Made by a program: the position numbers and the translations under genes. 64,000 nt of DNA, taken from positions 40,951 through 104,950 of the IMG/VR virus record IMGVR_UViG_3300002307_000034. The stretch is one strand, 5' to 3'. The stretch is from a virus. Shown one piece after another: positions 47,307 to 58,867 of the stretch. Each line of letters starts with the position of its first letter. Positions within the stretch are counted from its first letter, which is position 1. The notes below the pieces were generated by a model. It was not told where the DNA came from. It did not search any database and saw only the letters and a list, made by a program, of their open reading frames with translations.

Positions 47307-47458
47307 ATAACAATTATACTACATCGTTTTTAATGTCACCTATACGTCGGATTTCAATTTGACAAAATGTTAATATTTTTTTTATTTGTATGATCCGCTT
47401 TTTCGAGTAACTTAAAATTAGACATAGTGTGCCCATTTGTCTAAATATTCAGCCATTT

Positions 47459-47543
47459 TGTGACCCAAATCACAAAGATTTTTTGCAAATTGTCTCAAAT
47501 GTCCGTTTTGCGACTTGATTTTGTCAGTGTACTAGTGTAGTAT
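47459..47543 (+). promoter_or_regulatory. Composite promoter cassette 1 (CRP-type site, -35, PafBC-type -26/-10)
   Basis: TGTGACCCAAATCACA 47459; TTGATT 47515; TGTCAG-N10-TAGTAT 47522..47543. Confidence 0.75.
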
Positions 47544-47599
47544 TTATACTATAAGAGTTAATAAAGGTTATTAGCACTTCTTAAAGAAAGGTTATCCAA

Positions 47600-47743
47600 A
47601 TGATAACACTAAACTATACTTCTCTAGATTCTGACAATTCCGCCCGTTCTTTTGTGGGGTACTTCCATACAGAGAAAGCGGTCAATGACTACCTTGACCT
47701 AGTCTCAATAGATGAGACAATCCTCACAGTCAGCGTGATATAA
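47600..47743 (+). CDS. 47-aa hypothetical early protein
   Basis: GAAAGG SD; hand-translated MITLNYTSLDSD... Confidence 0.6.
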   Translation: MITLNYTSLDSDNSARSFVGYFHTEKAVNDYLDLVSIDETILTVSVI

Positions 47744-47809
47744 ATCACAAAACCTGACTGGTCAGATACGGCGTGTCGCATTGACTTTCGCCAAATAGTG
47801 TGATAGTAT
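47702..47809 (+). promoter_or_regulatory. Composite promoter cassette 2
   Basis: GTCTCA-N5-TGAGAC 47702; CGTGA-N6-TCACA 47734; GGCGTGTCG 47770; TTGACT-17-TAGTAT. Confidence 0.75.
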
Positions 47810-47865
47810 TCCACTATAAAATTAAATAAGAATAAATAAGAAAGAGTCTAGAAAGGACTACTATA

Positions 47866-48084
47866 ATGAATAACTACTATAATGAAATCCGCAAGGACAT
47901 CGCTAAAGACTTTGGTCTAGAGGCTGGTGGCTATGCTCCACTTCCTGCCCCTGCCTTGTCTATCGTTCAGGCTATGCGCCTTAATGCTAAGTACCCTAGC
48001 GAGGCGTTATCTACACGCCCTAGCGATAAGGCTATACTAATCGCTAAGCGATACGCTAGCCTAAAGAAAGTCTGGTCTAACTAA
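47866..48084 (+). CDS. Hypothetical early protein
   Basis: GAAAGGA SD downstream of promoter. Confidence 0.65.
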   Translation: MNNYYNEIRKDIAKDFGLEAGGYAPLPAPALSIVQAMRLNAKYPSEALSTRPSDKAILIAKRYASLKKVWSN

Positions 48085-48169
48085 TGACTATAAATAGCCT
48101 AACACTAATACAACTAGGTCTAATGTCGTACCTAGTTGCTAAACTAATAACAACTAAGAAAGAGGACTA

Positions 48170-48370
48170 ATGAAAACTAAGGTTATCACTACCGCCCTAC
48201 TAATAACGCTAGTACCTGCCACCGCACAGGCTAGCACTCACCACCACCGCACACCTAGAACTTATTCGGTGTATAATACAAATGTGTATAGAGGACAGAT
48301 GACTAAGATGAAATCTGCTCTCGGTATCCACTACCATACATACACACCTAAGCACCACAAGAAATACTAA
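48170..48370 (+). CDS. Small secreted basic His-rich protein
   Basis: Signal peptide ending AQA; GAGGA SD. Confidence 0.55.
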   Translation: MKTKVITTALLITLVPATAQASTHHHRTPRTYSVYNTNVYRGQMTKMKSALGIHYHTYTPKHHKKY

Positions 48371-48383
48371 GAAAGGAAAACTG

Positions 48384-48560
48384 ATGACTATGACTTATGT
48401 ACCTACTTGGGAGCGTGTCTATAATCCTTGGGACACAGAACCCGATTTCTATGATTTATCACAAATTGAAGAAGAAGAAAACGAAAAACAAAAAGATGAA
48501 ATGTCTATCGAAGAAATTGCCGAAGAAGAACTAGAATTAGAAGAGGATTTTGACCTATGA
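48384..48560 (+). CDS. 58-aa highly acidic protein
   Basis: Hand-translated; GAAAGGA SD; ends IEEIAEEELELEEDFDL. Confidence 0.6.
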   Translation: MTMTYVPTWERVYNPWDTEPDFYDLSQIEEEENEKQKDEMSIEEIAEEELELEEDFDL

Positions 48561-48724
48561 TGAGCCGTAAAGACTATGTAGAAACTGCACGAATTCTAAA
48601 TAAATATAAATCAGTAATAGATGAAAAAGATTTTTTAGATTTAGCAGATGATTTTTCTTTTATGTTTGAAAAAGACAATCCTAATTTTATTGCAGATAAA
48701 TTTTTAGAGGCTTGCAATAAATAA
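48557..48724 (+). CDS. 55-aa protein, RKDY...DNPNF family paralog 1
   Basis: Aligns with 49377..49571. Confidence 0.75.
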   Translation: MMSRKDYVETARILNKYKSVIDEKDFLDLADDFSFMFEKDNPNFIADKFLEACNK

Positions 48725-48738
48725 AAAAATCGAAGATC

Positions 48739-56575: not shown

Positions 56576-56881
56576 ATGATTGAATATATTGAAGAGGCTT
56601 ATCAACTAGTAACTGGATATACTTCTAAGACCCTCCGCCCTGGTTTAATGGATTTGCTAACATTTGATATGTTGGTTGATATGAATATGCAGGACGATGA
56701 GTATGTTTGGTTTAATACACCTGATGAGGTTATGCAACACATTGTTGACAATAACGTTACCTTTACGCTACAATTCGGTTTAGATGATTTATGGCATGCA
56801 ATAAGAGAATATCTAATAGAAAATGATTTCGTCAAAAGTATTGACGATGTAAAAGAAGAAGAGGAAAATAATGACAACTAA
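56576..56881 (+). CDS. Hypothetical acidic protein
   Basis: ORF track. Confidence 0.6.
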   Translation: MIEYIEEAYQLVTGYTSKTLRPGLMDLLTFDMLVDMNMQDDEYVWFNTPDEVMQHIVDNNVTFTLQFGLDDLWHAIREYLIENDFVKSIDDVKEEEENNDN

Positions 56882-57047
56882 GACAAATGCTCGTGAGTTT
56901 CTTGTATCAAAGGGATTCAAGCCAGGTGCTCGTGGCCGTTTCTCTGCTGAAATGATTCAGGTCCTTAAGGATTCAGGCCTTGAATTTAATCGTCCTGTAA
57001 AGGACCCTAAGCCTCGTGCAAAGAACGAGTCTGTAACTTTAAAGTAA
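56871..57047 (+). CDS. Lsr2-like DNA-binding domain protein (58 aa)
   Basis: Hand-translated; AREFLVSKGFKPGARGRFSAE resembles the Lsr2 RGR AT-hook domain; GAGGA SD. Confidence 0.7.
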   Translation: MTTKTNAREFLVSKGFKPGARGRFSAEMIQVLKDSGLEFNRPVKDPKPRAKNESVTLK

Positions 57048-57235
57048 ACCCTTTCACTACAAAGGTTCCGCTGCGTGAGTCCCGTACATTGTACGGGCTT
57101 GCGATAGATGGATCCAAGCTCGGTTATGTGATGTGTACGGATTGTGAACAGCATATGACATTTTGCGAGTGTGAGGGTGGCGTGAAGGCTCCGTCTCAAA
57201 TAGTAAGAGCCCTAGACAAACTGGTAAGACTCTGA
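57038..57235 (+). CDS. Cys-rich extension probably reached by -1 frameshift from the Lsr2-like gene
   Basis: Open -1 frame with CTDC..H..C.C, no good own start; T TTA AAG heptamer directly before the stop. Confidence 0.55.
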   Translation, partial: FKVNPFTTKVPLRESRTLYGLAIDGSKLGYVMCTDCEQHMTFCECEGGVKAPSQIVRALDKLVRL

Positions 57236-57262
57236 TATAATTCAGGGTTCGGAAAGGACAAT

Positions 57263-57562
57263 ATGGAAATCAACGAAAAGTATGTTAAACAAACTCTAGA
57301 TGCTATGGCTGACCATAGAATGACTACAGGTGTAGTTGCTCAACAGATTGCCCAATTCAAACCAAGGGAGCAAATTAGATTCTTTAAATTAGCAATTAAC
57401 TATATAGAGATTCTTGCACAGCACGGAGAGCGTGGCTACACTATGTTAGGTTTAGAACACATTGTTAAGGCTTGCGAGGAACTCTTATTTGTGGTAGACT
57501 TGCACTTCCCAAAAGATGAAACACAGATGACCCTACCCGGAATGGAGTACGTAGCAGTATGA
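57263..57562 (+). CDS. Hypothetical protein
   Basis: TAGACA-17-TATAAT promoter and GAAAGGA SD. Confidence 0.7.
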   Translation: MEINEKYVKQTLDAMADHRMTTGVVAQQIAQFKPREQIRFFKLAINYIEILAQHGERGYTMLGLEHIVKACEELLFVVDLHFPKDETQMTLPGMEYVAV

Positions 57563-57680
57563 CAACTTATTCAATCGCTTTAGAAGTTGATGAAGAATGG
57601 TTGCGAGTTATTCAAGACCTTACGTCTGAGGTCTATGACGGTGAAGTATGTAATTGGAAAAAGATAGAGGAGATTAAATA

Positions 57681-58058
57681 ATGGGAGCAAGAGTAAATTT
57701 CGTATTCAAGACAGAGTTAGATAAGCCTAACATTGTTCTATATTCTCATTGGGGCGAGGATACTTGGCAAGAAGATTTGGCTATGGCTATCGAAAAGGCA
57801 AGCAATCGTCTAAAAATGGGTGATGCAGTTTATGCCCTACGTATAATGATTGACCAATTAACTAAGTCTGGGCGGGACGAGGAAACAGGATTCGGTATCT
57901 ATCTAGCAGATGAAGATATGATGTATATGGACACTACAGTAGAAATTGATATGACTACTCAAATGGTTAATGATTCAGGCAATTGGCATTCATTTGAATC
58001 ATTTAGAGAATATCATCTAGAGGAAATGAAAGAGTACCACAAGTTTGACAATATTTAA
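57681..58058 (+). CDS. Hypothetical protein (MGAR...LYSHWG type)
   Basis: GAGGAG SD. Confidence 0.7.
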   Translation: MGARVNFVFKTELDKPNIVLYSHWGEDTWQEDLAMAIEKASNRLKMGDAVYALRIMIDQLTKSGRDEETGFGIYLADEDMMYMDTTVEIDMTTQMVNDSGNWHSFESFREYHLEEMKEYHKFDNI

Positions 58059-58080
58059 TATACAGTAGTATAATATATAT

Positions 58081-58165
58081 AAAGATATAGGGCGTTCAGG
58101 CTATTCTGCCAAGTCCAATTAATAGGACCCACACGAATTCGGGATCGTGTGGGTCCTTTCTTATT
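58081..58165 (+). ncRNA. Candidate small RNA
   Basis: TTGACA-18-TATAAT (58045..58074), about 85 nt without a start codon, then a 13-bp terminator stem. Confidence 0.45.
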
Positions 58166-58167
58166 TC
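58124..58167 (+). terminator. Intrinsic terminator closing the early array
   Basis: AGGACCCACACGA-N8-TCGTGTGGGTCCT plus TTCTTATTT. Confidence 0.85.
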
Positions 58168-58369
58168 ATAAAACATTTTGTAATATAAATCACATTGCCC
58201 AAAGCCCAAGACAGGGGTATTCGATCCACGGGTATTACGAAGGGGATCAAAATTCGCTGGAACTTTTAAAAAACGGGATTACGAAAGAACTCTTTTTTCC
58301 CCTAGTACATATATGACCAATATATCCTATATAAACACATATAAAATGTACCATAAAATATGTACACAT

Positions 58370-58667
58370 TCTGATCTATTTTGTCTAATTATAGACATAT
58401 ATGATTATATTCTGTACAAAACTAAATAGATATTGATCTATTTTGATCAAATTTGATTTGACATATAATATTTGATCATATTTGCACAGGTTATCCACAA
58501 TTGAATCATATATGTGGACATACGTGTATATTTATACACATGTTATCCACAACATTACGATGGGCCTGTGGATATCGCTTTATTACATGTATATAAAATA
58601 TCAATATATGAGATGTATTTAATCAATTTAATACTGTATTTTTCCACTATGCTCCACTTTACTCCAC
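58370..58667. promoter_or_regulatory. AT-rich block with DnaA boxes and 10-bp-phased GTGGAG repeats
   Basis: TTATCCACA 58491 and 58543, TTATACACA 58532, near-matches 58513 and 58567; CCAC at 58644/58654/58664. Confidence 0.7.
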
Positions 58668-58867
58668 TATCAAAATGGTTCAATATGGCTATCTGGAGCA
58701 CTAGGAATGAATGGTTGATCATATGCTATTTGGCCGTACATATCTTATATAGGGCTTATTAGCTGTTAAAGTGACTTATGGATTATCTATAGGTATGTTT
58801 ATCTAGGTAGTATTGGGATATTCTCTGGCTTCCCGCCCAATTATATTAAGTAGGATATAATTCATAT

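What the first reader, a model, noticed from the sequence alone, without database searches (positions are those of the whole stretch)
47400..58860. Early region is a modular array of host transcription-factor operators (sensor dashboard or TF-decoy system)
Seen: at least seven intergenic cassettes reuse the same parts in similar order. A variable upstream palindrome (ARG-type or GTTGA-N4-TCAAC) is followed by the 24-bp GC repeat ending GGCGTGTCG, then TGTGA-N6-TCACA, GTCTCA-N5 box, -35, TGTCAG-N10-TAnnnT. The region closes with DnaA boxes and phased GTGGAG repeats. Known: these match operator consensus sequences of actinobacterial CRP/GlxR, PafBC, WhiA, ArgR, RosR-type MarR, DnaA and MraZ. No corresponding regulator is encoded in this window. 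Inference: the phage either tunes small early genes to host cAMP, DNA-damage, arginine, redox and cell-cycle state, or uses amplified genomes as a multi-TF sponge that derepresses biosynthesis and blocks host replication/division. Several boxes lie 100+ bp from the core promoter, which fits a decoy role.
Basis: partly seen in the sequence, partly recalled or inferred. Interest (0 to 1): 0.93.

Follow-up and report, generated by a model that had tools for sequence, protein, structure and literature searches.

The report
Phage promoter array using host regulators
An uncultured 105-kb phage of actinobacteria drives its block of small early genes from repeated control cassettes whose core promoters match those switched on by PafBC, the host's DNA-damage activator, with precisely placed CRP-type and DnaA-type boxes around them, so it probably reads host signals and is not a decoy; no binding has been tested.

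Summary
In 47.3-58.9 kb, TGTCAG-N10-TAnnnT occurs 9 times (0.85 expected), TGTGA-N6-TCACA 5 times (0.15) and GGCGTGTCG 6 times (0.01). All lie in this block on the gene strand. The same three motifs recur in 17 of 18 distinct related IMG/VR phage loci.

The phage is an actinophage. It encodes WhiB, and it shares gene order and about 50% protein identity with Streptomyces BE-cluster phages.

The core promoter equals the published PafBC (RecA-NDp) motif tGTCgg(N10)tA(N3)T. It has no conserved -35. I found the same motif upstream of recA in 29 of 30 sampled Actinomycetia genomes.

CRP-type palindromes sit at helically phased distances from these promoters. DnaA-box clusters close the block.

The phage encodes no WYL, CRP, sigma-70 region 2 or DnaA domain, so host factors are the likeliest readers. 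This is inferred, not shown.

The WhiA, ArgR, RosR and MraZ assignments are weak or patchy. The decoy reading is not supported, because the sites are promoter-linked and phased.

This scan has already reported the same PafBC-type promoter arrays in many related phage genomes. I found no published description.

The parts
47307..47599 (+). Cassette A in the divergent intergenic region. CRP-type palindrome at 47459-47474, GTCTCA/AATGTCCG at 47492-47505, PafBC-type promoter TGTCAG 47522-47527 with -10 TAGTAT 47538-47543. It precedes the gene at 47600-47743.
47735..47865 (+). Cassette B. Half CRP-type site 47735-47748, GGCGTGTCG 47770-47778, then a canonical TTGACT-17-TAGTAT promoter at 47781-47809. 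It precedes genes 47866-48724.
48725..49016 (+). Cassette C. Paired GTTGAAGCTT palindromes/terminator 48739-48773, GC hairpin 48783-48805, GGCGTGTCG 48813-48821, near-CRP palindrome 48825-48840, CTCCATATATTGAG 48849-48862, promoter 48880-48908. A second GGCGTGTCG at 48953-48961 is followed by TTGATT-17-TAAACT. It precedes the gene at 49017.
49674..49869 (+). Cassette D. ARG-type palindromes 49688-49712, GC repeat 49711-49729, GGCGTGTCG 49730-49738, CRP-type palindrome 49747-49762, GCGTCTCA 49771-49778, PafBC-type promoter 49812-49833. It precedes the gene at 49870.
50150..50171 (+). PafBC-type promoter inside a small ORF, 24 nt before the start codon at 50196.
50690..50794 (+). Cassette F. CRP-type palindrome 50690-50705, reversed GGCGTGTC 50709-50716, TGGACA-18-TAAAAT promoter 50727-50756. 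It precedes the gene at 50795.
50974..51004 (+). Terminator-like hairpin 50974-50998 that carries TGTCAG (50983) in its loop, followed by the -10 TATACT 50999-51004. It precedes the gene at 51042.
51700..51963 (+). Cassette H. GTTGA-N4-TCAAC 51795-51808, GC repeat 51811-51829, GGCGTGTCG 51830-51838, TTACGAA 51839-51845, CRP-type half palindrome 51846-51861, GTCTCA 51870, second GGCGTGTCG 51891-51899, PafBC-type promoter 51910-51931. It precedes the gene at 51964.
52027..52048 (+). PafBC-type promoter inside the 51964-52079 ORF, 36 nt before the start codon at 52085.
53122..53448 (+). Cassette J. Two adjacent CRP-type palindromes 53206-53221 and 53222-53237, TTGACC-18-TAGAAT promoter 53248-53277 before a 28-codon ORF (53297-53382), then PafBC-type promoter 53396-53417 before the DUF932 gene (53449-54483).
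54484..54717 (+). Cassette K. Terminator 54490-54509, ARG-type palindromes 54547-54571, near-CRP palindrome 54583-54598, TTACGAA at 54634 and 54648, PafBC-type promoter 54670-54691. It precedes the Api92-like gene (54718-55449).
55399..55420 (+). PafBC-type promoter at the 3' end of the 54718-55449 gene, 31 nt before the start codon at 55452. It heads a run of about 13 small genes to 58058.
58059..58867 (.). Non-coding end of the block. Consensus promoter 58045-58074, strong terminator 58124-58157, near-CRP palindrome 58179-58194, TTACGAA at 58235 and 58279, AT-rich stretch with GATCTATTTTG repeats, four DnaA-type boxes 58491-58575, three TCCAC units 10 bp apart at 58643-58668. Candidate replication origin, or the end of a terminal repeat.

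Best explanation
The 11.5-kb block at 47.3-58.9 kb is the early-gene region of a lytic-type actinophage. It corresponds in position to the terminal-repeat region of small genes in Streptomyces BE-cluster phages. About 35 small genes are split into a dozen short transcription units. Each unit is headed by a control cassette built from a shared set of parts.

Nine units start from promoters of the PafBC (RecA-NDp) type. These have a -26 element AATGTCAGT(G/C), an extended -10 TGnTAnAAT and no conserved -35. I infer that the host RNA polymerase with its housekeeping sigma reads them with the help of host PafBC. PafBC is activated by single-stranded DNA, so these genes would fire or be boosted when such DNA appears during infection, phage replication or host damage.

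CRP-type palindromes centred near -64, -74 and -85 would add a cAMP/CRP-family input from one face of the helix. GGCGTGTCG next to the -35 position marks a second promoter class with an unknown reader. The DnaA-box cluster with its AT-rich flank is a likely origin at which host DnaA loads the phage's own DnaB-type helicase.

Shown: the motifs, their clustering, their geometry, their conservation, and the absence of matching regulator domains in the phage. Inferred: which proteins bind, and the timing.
For: 1. Motif statistics and clustering.
2. Each of the nine TGTCAG-N10-TAnnnT sites lies 24-56 nt before a + strand start codon.
3. The published PafBC motif is tGTCgg(N10)tA(N3)T. Its 5' part lies at -23 to -28, GTC is invariant across actinobacteria and there is no -35 (PMC8635444). 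A Streptomyces coelicolor RecA-NDp promoter, quoted inside a primer, reads TGTCAGTGG-N7-TACGGT (PMC5087735).
4. In 147 distinct sites from the window and 17 relatives, only the -26 element and TGnTAnAAT are conserved. Nothing at -35 is.
5. In 29 of 30 sampled Actinomycetia genomes, recA has one [T/A]GTCnG-N10-TAnnnT site upstream: 73-153 bp before the start of the RecA Pfam match in 28 genomes and 302 bp in one. The count is 26 of 27 without the unpublished genomes G030, G036 and G043.
6. The phage is an actinophage. WhiB scores 42.7 bits, above the Pfam cut-off. The capsid protein is 54% and the DUF932 protein 49% identical to Streptomyces BE/BK phage proteins. The order RNR, glycosyltransferase, small genes, DUF932 is shared with phage Samisti12.
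7. Samisti12's early promoters carry TGTC-N12-TAGAnT directly before five annotated genes.
8. The phage genome has no WYL, CRP HTH, cNMP-binding, sigma-70 region 2 or DnaA C-terminal domain. Five small Actinomycetia genomes all have tandem WYL genes of about 320-345 codons, and four of five have a CRP-type protein.
9. Distances from the CRP-type palindrome to the promoter fall into classes of 44, 53-54, 64-65 and 83 bp (44 distinct contexts, Rayleigh p about 1e-7).
10. DnaA-box clusters of 3-7 boxes recur 4-6 kb past the DUF932 gene in at least 11 relatives. The phage encodes DnaB-like helicase, primase, DnaE and RecA, and no DnaA DNA-binding domain was found.
11. Restriction-type palindromes (AGCT, GATC, CATG, ACGT) are depleted in this block only, as expected of DNA that enters and is expressed first.
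Against: - No binding or transcription data exist, and the host is unknown.
- The extended -10 could by itself make these promoters independent of a -35, so the -26 element might be read by something else. About 30 early proteins have no recognisable domain, and any of them could bind DNA.
- In the window, five of the nine promoters also have a 4/6 -35-like hexamer. Samisti12's promoters have TTGAnT at -35. Known PafBC promoters do not.
- PafBC is inactive without single-stranded DNA, which is awkward for the very first genes of an infection.
- CRP-type centres lie 2-3 bp away from the classical -61.5/-71.5/-82.5 positions, if the start site is taken 7 nt past the -10.
- The phasing statistic counts related cassettes, which are not independent.
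Confidence: 0.6

Rival explanations
1. The motifs are read by phage-encoded proteins. One or more of the unknown small early proteins would bind the -26 element, the palindrome and GGCGTGTCG and redirect host RNA polymerase. This would work like T4 MotA/AsiA at middle promoters, or a phage repressor at dispersed operators. The TGTCAG promoters would then be 'middle' promoters, and the canonical GGCGTGTCG-TTGAnn promoters the true early ones.
For: - About 30 early proteins have no Pfam match.
- Two promoter classes exist.
- GGCGTGTCG, TTACGAA and AATGTCCG match no host consensus that I could document. TTACGAA-like words also occur in the terminal non-coding DNA of Samisti12.
- All relatives share both the motifs and many genes, so co-occurrence cannot separate the two readings.
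Against: - The -26 element is identical in 8 bases and in its spacing to host RecA-NDp promoters.
- The palindrome is the exact CRP consensus, and the boxes are exact DnaA boxes. Three independent coincidences are unlikely.
- No WYL, CRP, sigma-70 region 2 or DnaA domain is found in the phage. The only HTH hint is below the Pfam cut-off.
Confidence: 0.25
2. Promoter cassettes spread by duplication and recombination, with no factor involved beyond the host housekeeping sigma. The shared spacer and upstream words would be inherited from a common ancestral cassette and would not be individually functional.
For: - Cassettes are clearly copied within a genome, for example 45-nt and 31-nt repeats at 80-97% identity.
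- The GC-rich part of the repeat differs between phages but is uniform within each phage.
- Extended -10 promoters can work without a -35.
Against: - In 147 distinct sites the flanks have diverged while the -26 element stays fixed in sequence and position.
- The motifs persist in relatives whose marker protein is only 53% identical.
- The palindromes keep discrete spacings about 10 bp apart.
Confidence: 0.1
3. Decoy or sponge. The array on replicating genomes soaks up host PafBC, CRP, DnaA and other regulators, which would derepress or cripple host programmes.
For: - There are many sites per genome: 9-19 PafBC-type and 2-8 CRP-type.
- The phage lacks the regulators themselves.
- A DnaA-box cluster could titrate DnaA.
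Against: - Every PafBC-type site is a complete promoter placed just before a gene on the coding strand.
- CRP-type sites are helically phased to promoters.
- The boxes cited as '100+ bp away' sit next to another promoter.
[quoted passage not shown] A later one shows it binding in a complex with RNA polymerase, promoter DNA and ssDNA (PMC8635444). A passive sponge for PafBC is therefore hard to picture.
Confidence: 0.04

Closest known systems
PafBC-dependent (RecA-NDp, recA P1-type) promoters of Mycobacterium, Streptomyces and other actinobacteria, read by 'sigma adaptation' (PMC8635444, PMC11804915)
   Same: - The bipartite motif tGTCgg(N10)tA(N3)T, with the -26 element at -28 to -23, an invariant GTC and a housekeeping-type -10.
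- No conserved -35.
- The word TGTCAGTG is identical to a Streptomyces example.
   Different: - These sit on a phage, in arrays of 9-19 before small genes of unknown function, not before host repair genes.
- They have a strong extended -10 (TGn) and are AT-rich.
- Some copies also have a -35-like hexamer.
- PafBC dependence is untested.
- No paper in the searched library links this motif to phage promoters.
Early/terminal-repeat region of Streptomyces BE-cluster phages (Samisti12, Coruscant; Stanwilliamsviridae)
   Same: - Same gene order (RNR, glycosyltransferase, many small genes, DUF932 gene near the end) and homologous capsid and DUF932 proteins.
- whiB and a GC content far below that of the host.
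- Early promoters with TGTC at the same distance from the -10.
   Different: - GC is 35% here against 48-52% there.
- Samisti12 promoters keep a TTGAnT -35 and have no CRP-type palindromes, no GGCGTGTCG array and no DnaA boxes in the stretch read.
- A terminal repeat could not be checked here.
Bacillus phage phi29 host Spo0A boxes at its promoters
   Same: A lytic phage carries binding sites for a host master regulator that it does not encode, and so couples its early transcription to host state.
   Different: - Spo0A represses phi29 promoters in sporulating cells.
- Here the main site is part of the core promoter and would activate it.
- Several different host-type sites are combined in each cassette.
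T4 middle promoters with MotA/AsiA 'sigma appropriation' (contrasted with PafBC in PMC8635444)
   Same: Phage promoters keep a normal -10 and replace the -35 with an activator box around -30.
   Different: In T4 the activator and co-activator are encoded by the phage. No counterpart was found here, and the box equals a host motif.
Class I CRP-dependent promoters of Escherichia coli and the CRP/GlxR regulons of actinobacteria (general knowledge)
   Same: An exact TGTGA-N6-TCACA palindrome upstream of the promoter, at distances about 10 bp apart.
   Different: - Centres fall near -64.5, -74.5 and -84.5, not at -61.5, -71.5 and -82.5.
- The partner promoter is of the PafBC type, for which no CRP co-activation is known.

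Membership tests
PafBC-dependent (RecA-NDp) promoter | Motif tGTCgg(N10)tA(N3)T with invariant GTC at -27 to -25 | tested here: met
   Nine exact TGTCAG-N10-TAnnnT sites against 0.85 expected. 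147 distinct sites in relatives. Motif definition from PMC8635444.
PafBC-dependent (RecA-NDp) promoter | No -35 consensus | tested here: met
   No position upstream of -30 exceeds 0.25 bits in 147 sites. Single copies in the window do have 4/6 -35-like hexamers.
PafBC-dependent (RecA-NDp) promoter | The host encodes PafB and PafC and uses the motif at recA | tested here: inconclusive
   The host is unknown. In the class Actinomycetia, 29 of 30 sampled genomes have the motif upstream of recA, and 5 of 5 small genomes have tandem WYL genes. Three of the recA loci come from unpublished genomes (G030, G036, G043).
PafBC-dependent (RecA-NDp) promoter | Transcription requires PafBC activated by ssDNA | not testable with these tools
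   Needs in vitro transcription or a pafBC mutant host.
CRP/GlxR-type activator site | 16-bp palindrome TGTGA-N6-TCACA | tested here: met
   Five exact sites against 0.15 expected. There are 2-8 per locus in 16 of 17 relatives; one, L016, has none.
CRP/GlxR-type activator site | Placed on one face of the helix relative to the promoter (class I spacing) | tested here: inconclusive
   Distance classes of 44, 53-54, 64-65 and 83 bp, Rayleigh p about 1e-7. The contexts are related to each other, and the centres are offset 2-3 bp from the classical positions.
CRP/GlxR-type activator site | A CRP-family protein is available | tested here: inconclusive
   None in the phage. Present in 4 of 5 small Actinomycetia genomes. 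The real host is unknown.
DnaA-dependent origin | Cluster of DnaA boxes next to AT-rich DNA | tested here: met
   Four boxes (two exact) within 85 bp at 58491-58575. GC is 0.31 at 58-59 kb. Clusters of 3-7 boxes occur in at least 11 relatives.
DnaA-dependent origin | Replication starts there and needs DnaA | not testable with these tools
   The phage has no DnaA C-terminal domain but has a DnaB-like helicase, a primase and DnaE.
WhiA/WhiB-activated promoter | GACAC motif upstream of the -35, with WhiB on sigma region 4 | tested here: inconclusive
   GGCGTGTCG contains GACAC on the other strand and lies 2 nt before a TTGAnn hexamer. The phage encodes a WhiB. In the solved sepX complex, WhiB occupies the DNA directly upstream of the -35 and WhiA binds further out (PMC10243135). 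Only 5 of the 9 conserved bases are explained.
ArgR operator (ARG box) | TGCAT-N4-ATGCA core, usually in tandem boxes | tested here: inconclusive
   Two exact cores at 49699 and 54558 match the best S. coelicolor boxes listed in PMC5839063. They are present in only 4 of 17 relatives.
Transcription-factor decoy or sponge | Sites detached from promoters and genes | tested here: not met
   All PafBC-type sites precede start codons by 24-56 nt. Palindromes are phased to promoters. The 'distant' boxes adjoin the promoter at 53248-53277.
Long terminal-repeat early region of BE-cluster phages | Shared gene order and homologous marker genes | tested here: met
Long terminal-repeat early region of BE-cluster phages | The block is physically repeated at both genome ends | not testable with these tools
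   Needs read coverage.

The most novel reading that the evidence does not exclude
A widespread family of lytic freshwater actinophages, with Streptomyces BE-cluster phages as cultured kin, uses the host's ssDNA-sensing activator PafBC as the master switch of its early programme. It does this by giving a dozen promoters the host -26 element. It layers CRP and DnaA inputs on the same cassettes, so that phage gene expression and replication start are gated by host DNA-damage, cAMP and replication status.
Probability: 0.45. Interest if true: 0.8.

Novelty: new variant of a known kind. Interest (0 to 1): 0.64.

Why it matters
PafBC 'sigma adaptation' is known only as a host DNA-damage response. 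If phages write the same -26 element into a dozen of their own promoters, PafBC also becomes a phage-exploited switch. That would explain how large actinophages with no sigma factor of their own order their early transcription.

It would also tie infection success to host DNA damage (for example sunlight in lakes) and to cAMP state.

The question is directly testable with cultured Streptomyces relatives and with the existing purified PafBC/RNA polymerase systems. The phage family is abundant in lake metagenomes, so the rule would apply to many genomes.

Tried and rejected
- Near-identical DNA search against cultured phages found nothing.
No expression or end data could be obtained.
- Host identification failed three ways. 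The phage WhiB had no relative in genome contigs. Its homologues in the protein collection lie mostly on short or roughly 100-kb contigs, and the one organism name given is an uncultured phage, so none pointed to a host. The RNR query returned contigs, most likely phage, that sit in MAGs labelled with many unrelated phyla. The protein atlas gave only viral clusters.
- Rfam found no RNA family in the block.
- I tested whether the GC repeat is a stable terminator hairpin. Seven of nine copies fold no better than shuffles. Only 48778-48822 (z -2.9) and an inverted pair in L019 (z -4.3) stand out. I therefore do not call the repeat a terminator. Across relatives only its last 12 bases, TCGGGCGTGTCG, are conserved.
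- Generic sigma-70 promoter scanning is not enriched.
- I rejected an actinobacterial MraZ reading of the TCCAC repeats for lack of any support. They share the DnaA-box core.
- I considered a phage-encoded sigma factor. No sigma-70 region 2 is present.

Full report
**What the window is.** The window is the last 64 kb of a 104,950-bp IMG/VR virus record rated 97% complete. GC is about 35%. The left 44 kb holds virion genes on the minus strand: portal, protease-scaffold, capsid and fibres. The finding covers a plus-strand block of about 35 small ORFs between 47.3 and 58.9 kb.

- TGTCAG-N10-TAnnnT occurs 9 times against 0.85 expected. TGTGA-N6-TCACA occurs 5 times against 0.15. GGCGTGTCG occurs 6 times against 0.01.
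- All copies lie between 47.4 and 55.5 kb. The promoter motifs and GGCGTGTCG are all on the coding strand. None of the exact forms occurs elsewhere in the genome.
- The GC-rich repeat has three copies.
- An unbiased 7-mer test on the 2.9 kb of intergenic DNA returns the same words: GCGTGTC, GGGCGGG, TGTCAGT, TGTGATT and GTCTCAA. It adds ATTACGA.
- At least eight intergenic cassettes use these parts in the same order (see the parts list).
- Generic sigma-70-like sites are not enriched. It is this specific family that stands out.

**Conservation.** The 344-residue DUF932 protein (53449-54483) retrieved 19 related IMG/VR loci at 47-86% identity.
- Every locus with GC 35-39% carries arrays of the promoter motif, 2-19 copies, almost all on the gene strand.
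- All but one (L016) also carry 2-8 CRP-type palindromes, and most carry GGCGTGTCG in either orientation.
- This holds for loci whose marker protein is only 53% identical.
- The exception is a 7-kb fragment with 55% GC.

**Host.**
- The genome encodes a WhiB-family protein above the Pfam cut-off. The ORF shows the cysteine pattern and the GVWGG turn. WhiB-like proteins are reported only from Actinobacteria (PMC6282962, abstract shown), and whiB is used as a marker for their phages (PMC10914622).
- The capsid protein is 54% identical to those of Streptomyces BE/BK-cluster phages. The DUF932 protein is 49% identical to gene 2 of BE phages.
- The order RNR, glycosyltransferase, small genes, DUF932 is shared with phage Samisti12.
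- BE-cluster phage Coruscant is virulent, 133 kb, has a 12-kb terminal repeat, encodes whiB, and has 48% GC on a 72% GC host (PMC7650747). A 35% GC phage on a lower-GC actinobacterium is therefore plausible.
- Direct host assignment failed.

**The core promoter.** I checked it in six ways.
- *Published motif.* It is tGTCgg(N10)tA(N3)T. The 5' part lies at -23 to -28, the GTC triplet is nearly invariant across actinobacteria, the -10 is of the housekeeping type, and there is no -35 (PMC8635444).
- *Streptomyces example.* A S. coelicolor RecA-NDp promoter, quoted inside a primer, reads TGTCAGTGG-N7-TACGGT (PMC5087735).
- *Window sites.* The nine sites read TGTCAGT(G/C) or, once, TGTCAGAC, then TAnnnT after 10 bases in all.
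- *Family logo.* In 147 distinct sites the logo is AA-TGTC(A/G)G-T-(G/C)-(C/G)-N4-TG-N-TAnAAT, with no information at -35.
- *Independent control.* I fetched recA loci from 30 genomes of the class that contains an Aquiluna MAG. In 29 of them there is one [T/A]GTCnG-N10-TAnnnT site upstream of recA, 73-153 bp before the start of the RecA Pfam match in 28 genomes and 302 bp in one. Three loci come from unpublished genomes (G030, G036, G043). Without them the count is 26 of 27.
- *Position and kin.* Each of the nine phage sites lies 24-56 nt before a start codon. Samisti12's early promoters have TGTC at the same distance from a TAGAnT -10, directly before five annotated genes, although with a TTGAnT -35.

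**Who reads it?**
- The phage genome has no WYL domain, no CRP-type HTH or cNMP-binding domain, no sigma-70 region 2 and no DnaA DNA-binding domain.
- Pfam scans of 30 proteins in and around the block gave only DUF932, an Api92-like domain and three enzymes.
- Scans of 40 further proteins (34 from the rest of the genome, six from the window's right end) gave enzymes, chaperones and a replisome. The only HTH hint was below the cut-off.
- Five small genomes of the sampled class all have two adjacent WYL genes of 320-345 codons, as pafB and pafC do. Four of the five have a CRP-type protein.
- Host PafBC is therefore the simplest reader. The many unknown small proteins keep a phage-encoded reader possible.

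**CRP-type palindromes.**
- The distance from the start of the palindrome to the TGTCAG falls into classes of 44, 53-54, 64-65 and 83 bp.
- If transcription starts 7 nt past the -10, the centres lie near -64.5, -74.5, -84.5 and -103.5.
- The 10-bp periodicity is strong (R about 0.6), but many contexts are homologous, so the p-value overstates independence.
- In the window the spacings are 63, 65 and 64 bp for three cassettes.
- This geometry fits an activator acting from one face of the helix. It does not fit a decoy.

**GGCGTGTCG and the GC repeat.** Across relatives the conserved unit is (T)CGGGCGTGTCG.
- In one context it lies 1-3 nt before a TTGAnn hexamer, followed 17 nt later by TAnnnT. 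This is a second, canonical promoter class (47770 and 48953 in the window).
- In another context it follows a GC-rich stretch and precedes TTACGAA and the palindrome. The GC-rich stretch differs between phages but is uniform within each one.
- It also occurs reversed, and as inverted pairs.
- The GC stretch mostly does not fold better than shuffled sequence.
- The word contains the WhiA pentamer on the opposite strand, and the phage has a WhiB. The position differs from the solved WhiA/WhiB complex (PMC10243135).

**Other claimed operators.**
- The ARG-type core TGCAT-N4-ATGCA occurs twice. It matches the strongest S. coelicolor ARG boxes listed in PMC5839063. It is present in only 4 of 17 relatives.
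- GTTGA-N4-TCAAC is present in 3 of 17 relatives.
- GCGTCTCA and AATGTCCG recur on the coding strand in many relatives. I could not match them to a documented factor.
- The 'GTGGAG' repeats are three TCCAC units one helical turn apart. They share the core of the DnaA box.

**The end of the block.**
- After a strong terminator (58124-58157) comes 700 bp of AT-rich non-coding DNA with four DnaA-type boxes in 85 bp.
- Clusters of 3-7 exact boxes, some at a 21-bp period, lie at the matching place in at least 11 relatives.
- More distant relatives also have a convergent pair of boxes just upstream of the DUF932 promoter.
- The phage encodes a DnaB-like helicase, a primase, DnaE and RecA, and no DnaA DNA-binding domain was found.
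- A DnaA-dependent origin is the best reading. The boundary of a terminal repeat is an alternative that I could not test.

**Is the block early?** I infer this from four things:
- its many small genes;
- its housekeeping-type -10 elements;
- its correspondence to the terminal-repeat region of BE phages;
- a marked depletion of AGCT, GATC, CATG and ACGT in this block only, at observed/expected ratios of 0.17-0.47 against 0.56-1.24 elsewhere. That is the pattern expected of DNA that must survive restriction before any phage protein is made.

**Novelty.** Searches of the paper library for RecA-NDp or PafBC together with phage returned no description of phage promoters of this type. One cited study, which I could not read, concerns pafBC and mycobacteriophage resistance. 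Within this scan the same promoter arrays have already been reported and followed up in many related genomes, with the same conclusion.

**Verdict.** This is a real, conserved and apparently unpublished regulatory architecture. The reading that the phage couples its early genes to host regulators is the best supported. The PafBC part is the strongest, CRP and DnaA are good, and the rest are weak. The decoy reading is unlikely.

Noticed in passing
window 47600-58058, compared with the rest of G000: Palindromic tetramers AGCT, GATC, CATG and ACGT are 2-6 times rarer than expected in the early block, but near expectation (CATG 0.56) in the rest of the genome. This looks like avoidance of restriction sites in the DNA that enters first.
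   Followed up: partly
window 58045-58157: A perfect TTGACA-18-TATAAT promoter overlaps the end of the last early gene. About 50 nt later comes the strongest terminator of the region (13 pairs). This could be a small RNA of about 80 nt.
   Followed up: no
window 50974-51004: A 10-pair terminator-like hairpin carries the TGTCAG -26 element in its loop and is followed at once by the -10. Terminator and promoter overlap here.
   Followed up: no
G000:C1:245-40000 (L082, L083), outside the window: The phage encodes its own RecA, a DenV-like pyrimidine-dimer glycosylase, DnaE, a primase, a DnaB-like helicase and a PD-(D/E)XK nuclease. It also encodes GroES, thioredoxin, a ferritin-like protein, Hsp20, a PIG-L/MshB-like deacetylase and a borderline proteasome-subunit match. 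The DNA-damage theme fits the promoter type.
   Followed up: partly
L016:29-60, L017:9879-9910, L018:9539-9570, L020:9855, L021:1479: In the more distant relatives, a convergent pair of exact DnaA boxes (a single box in L020 and L021) lies 100-145 bp before the DUF932 gene, next to its PafBC-type promoter. DnaA boxes also act as a cassette part there.
   Followed up: no
L023:21500-22030 (Samisti12 terminal non-coding DNA); window 51839, 53262, 54634, 54648, 58235, 58279: TTTACGAA/TTACGAA words recur in the non-coding terminal DNA of the Streptomyces phage. In the window and its closer relatives they are strongly strand-biased, for example 12 on the + strand and 0 on the - strand in L004. Their reader is unknown.
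   Followed up: partly
L025-L050 (genome contigs): Contigs that encode this phage-type RNR at 54-86% identity sit in MAGs labelled cyanobacterium, Saccharibacteria, Bacteroidia, Brevundimonas, archaea and others. They are most likely phage contigs that were binned wrongly.
   Followed up: no
window 48631-48687 and 49454-49510: Two small early genes (48557-48724 and 49377-49571) share a 57-nt stretch at 70% identity (family D5). The early block seems to hold paralogous small genes as well as repeated cassettes.
   Followed up: no
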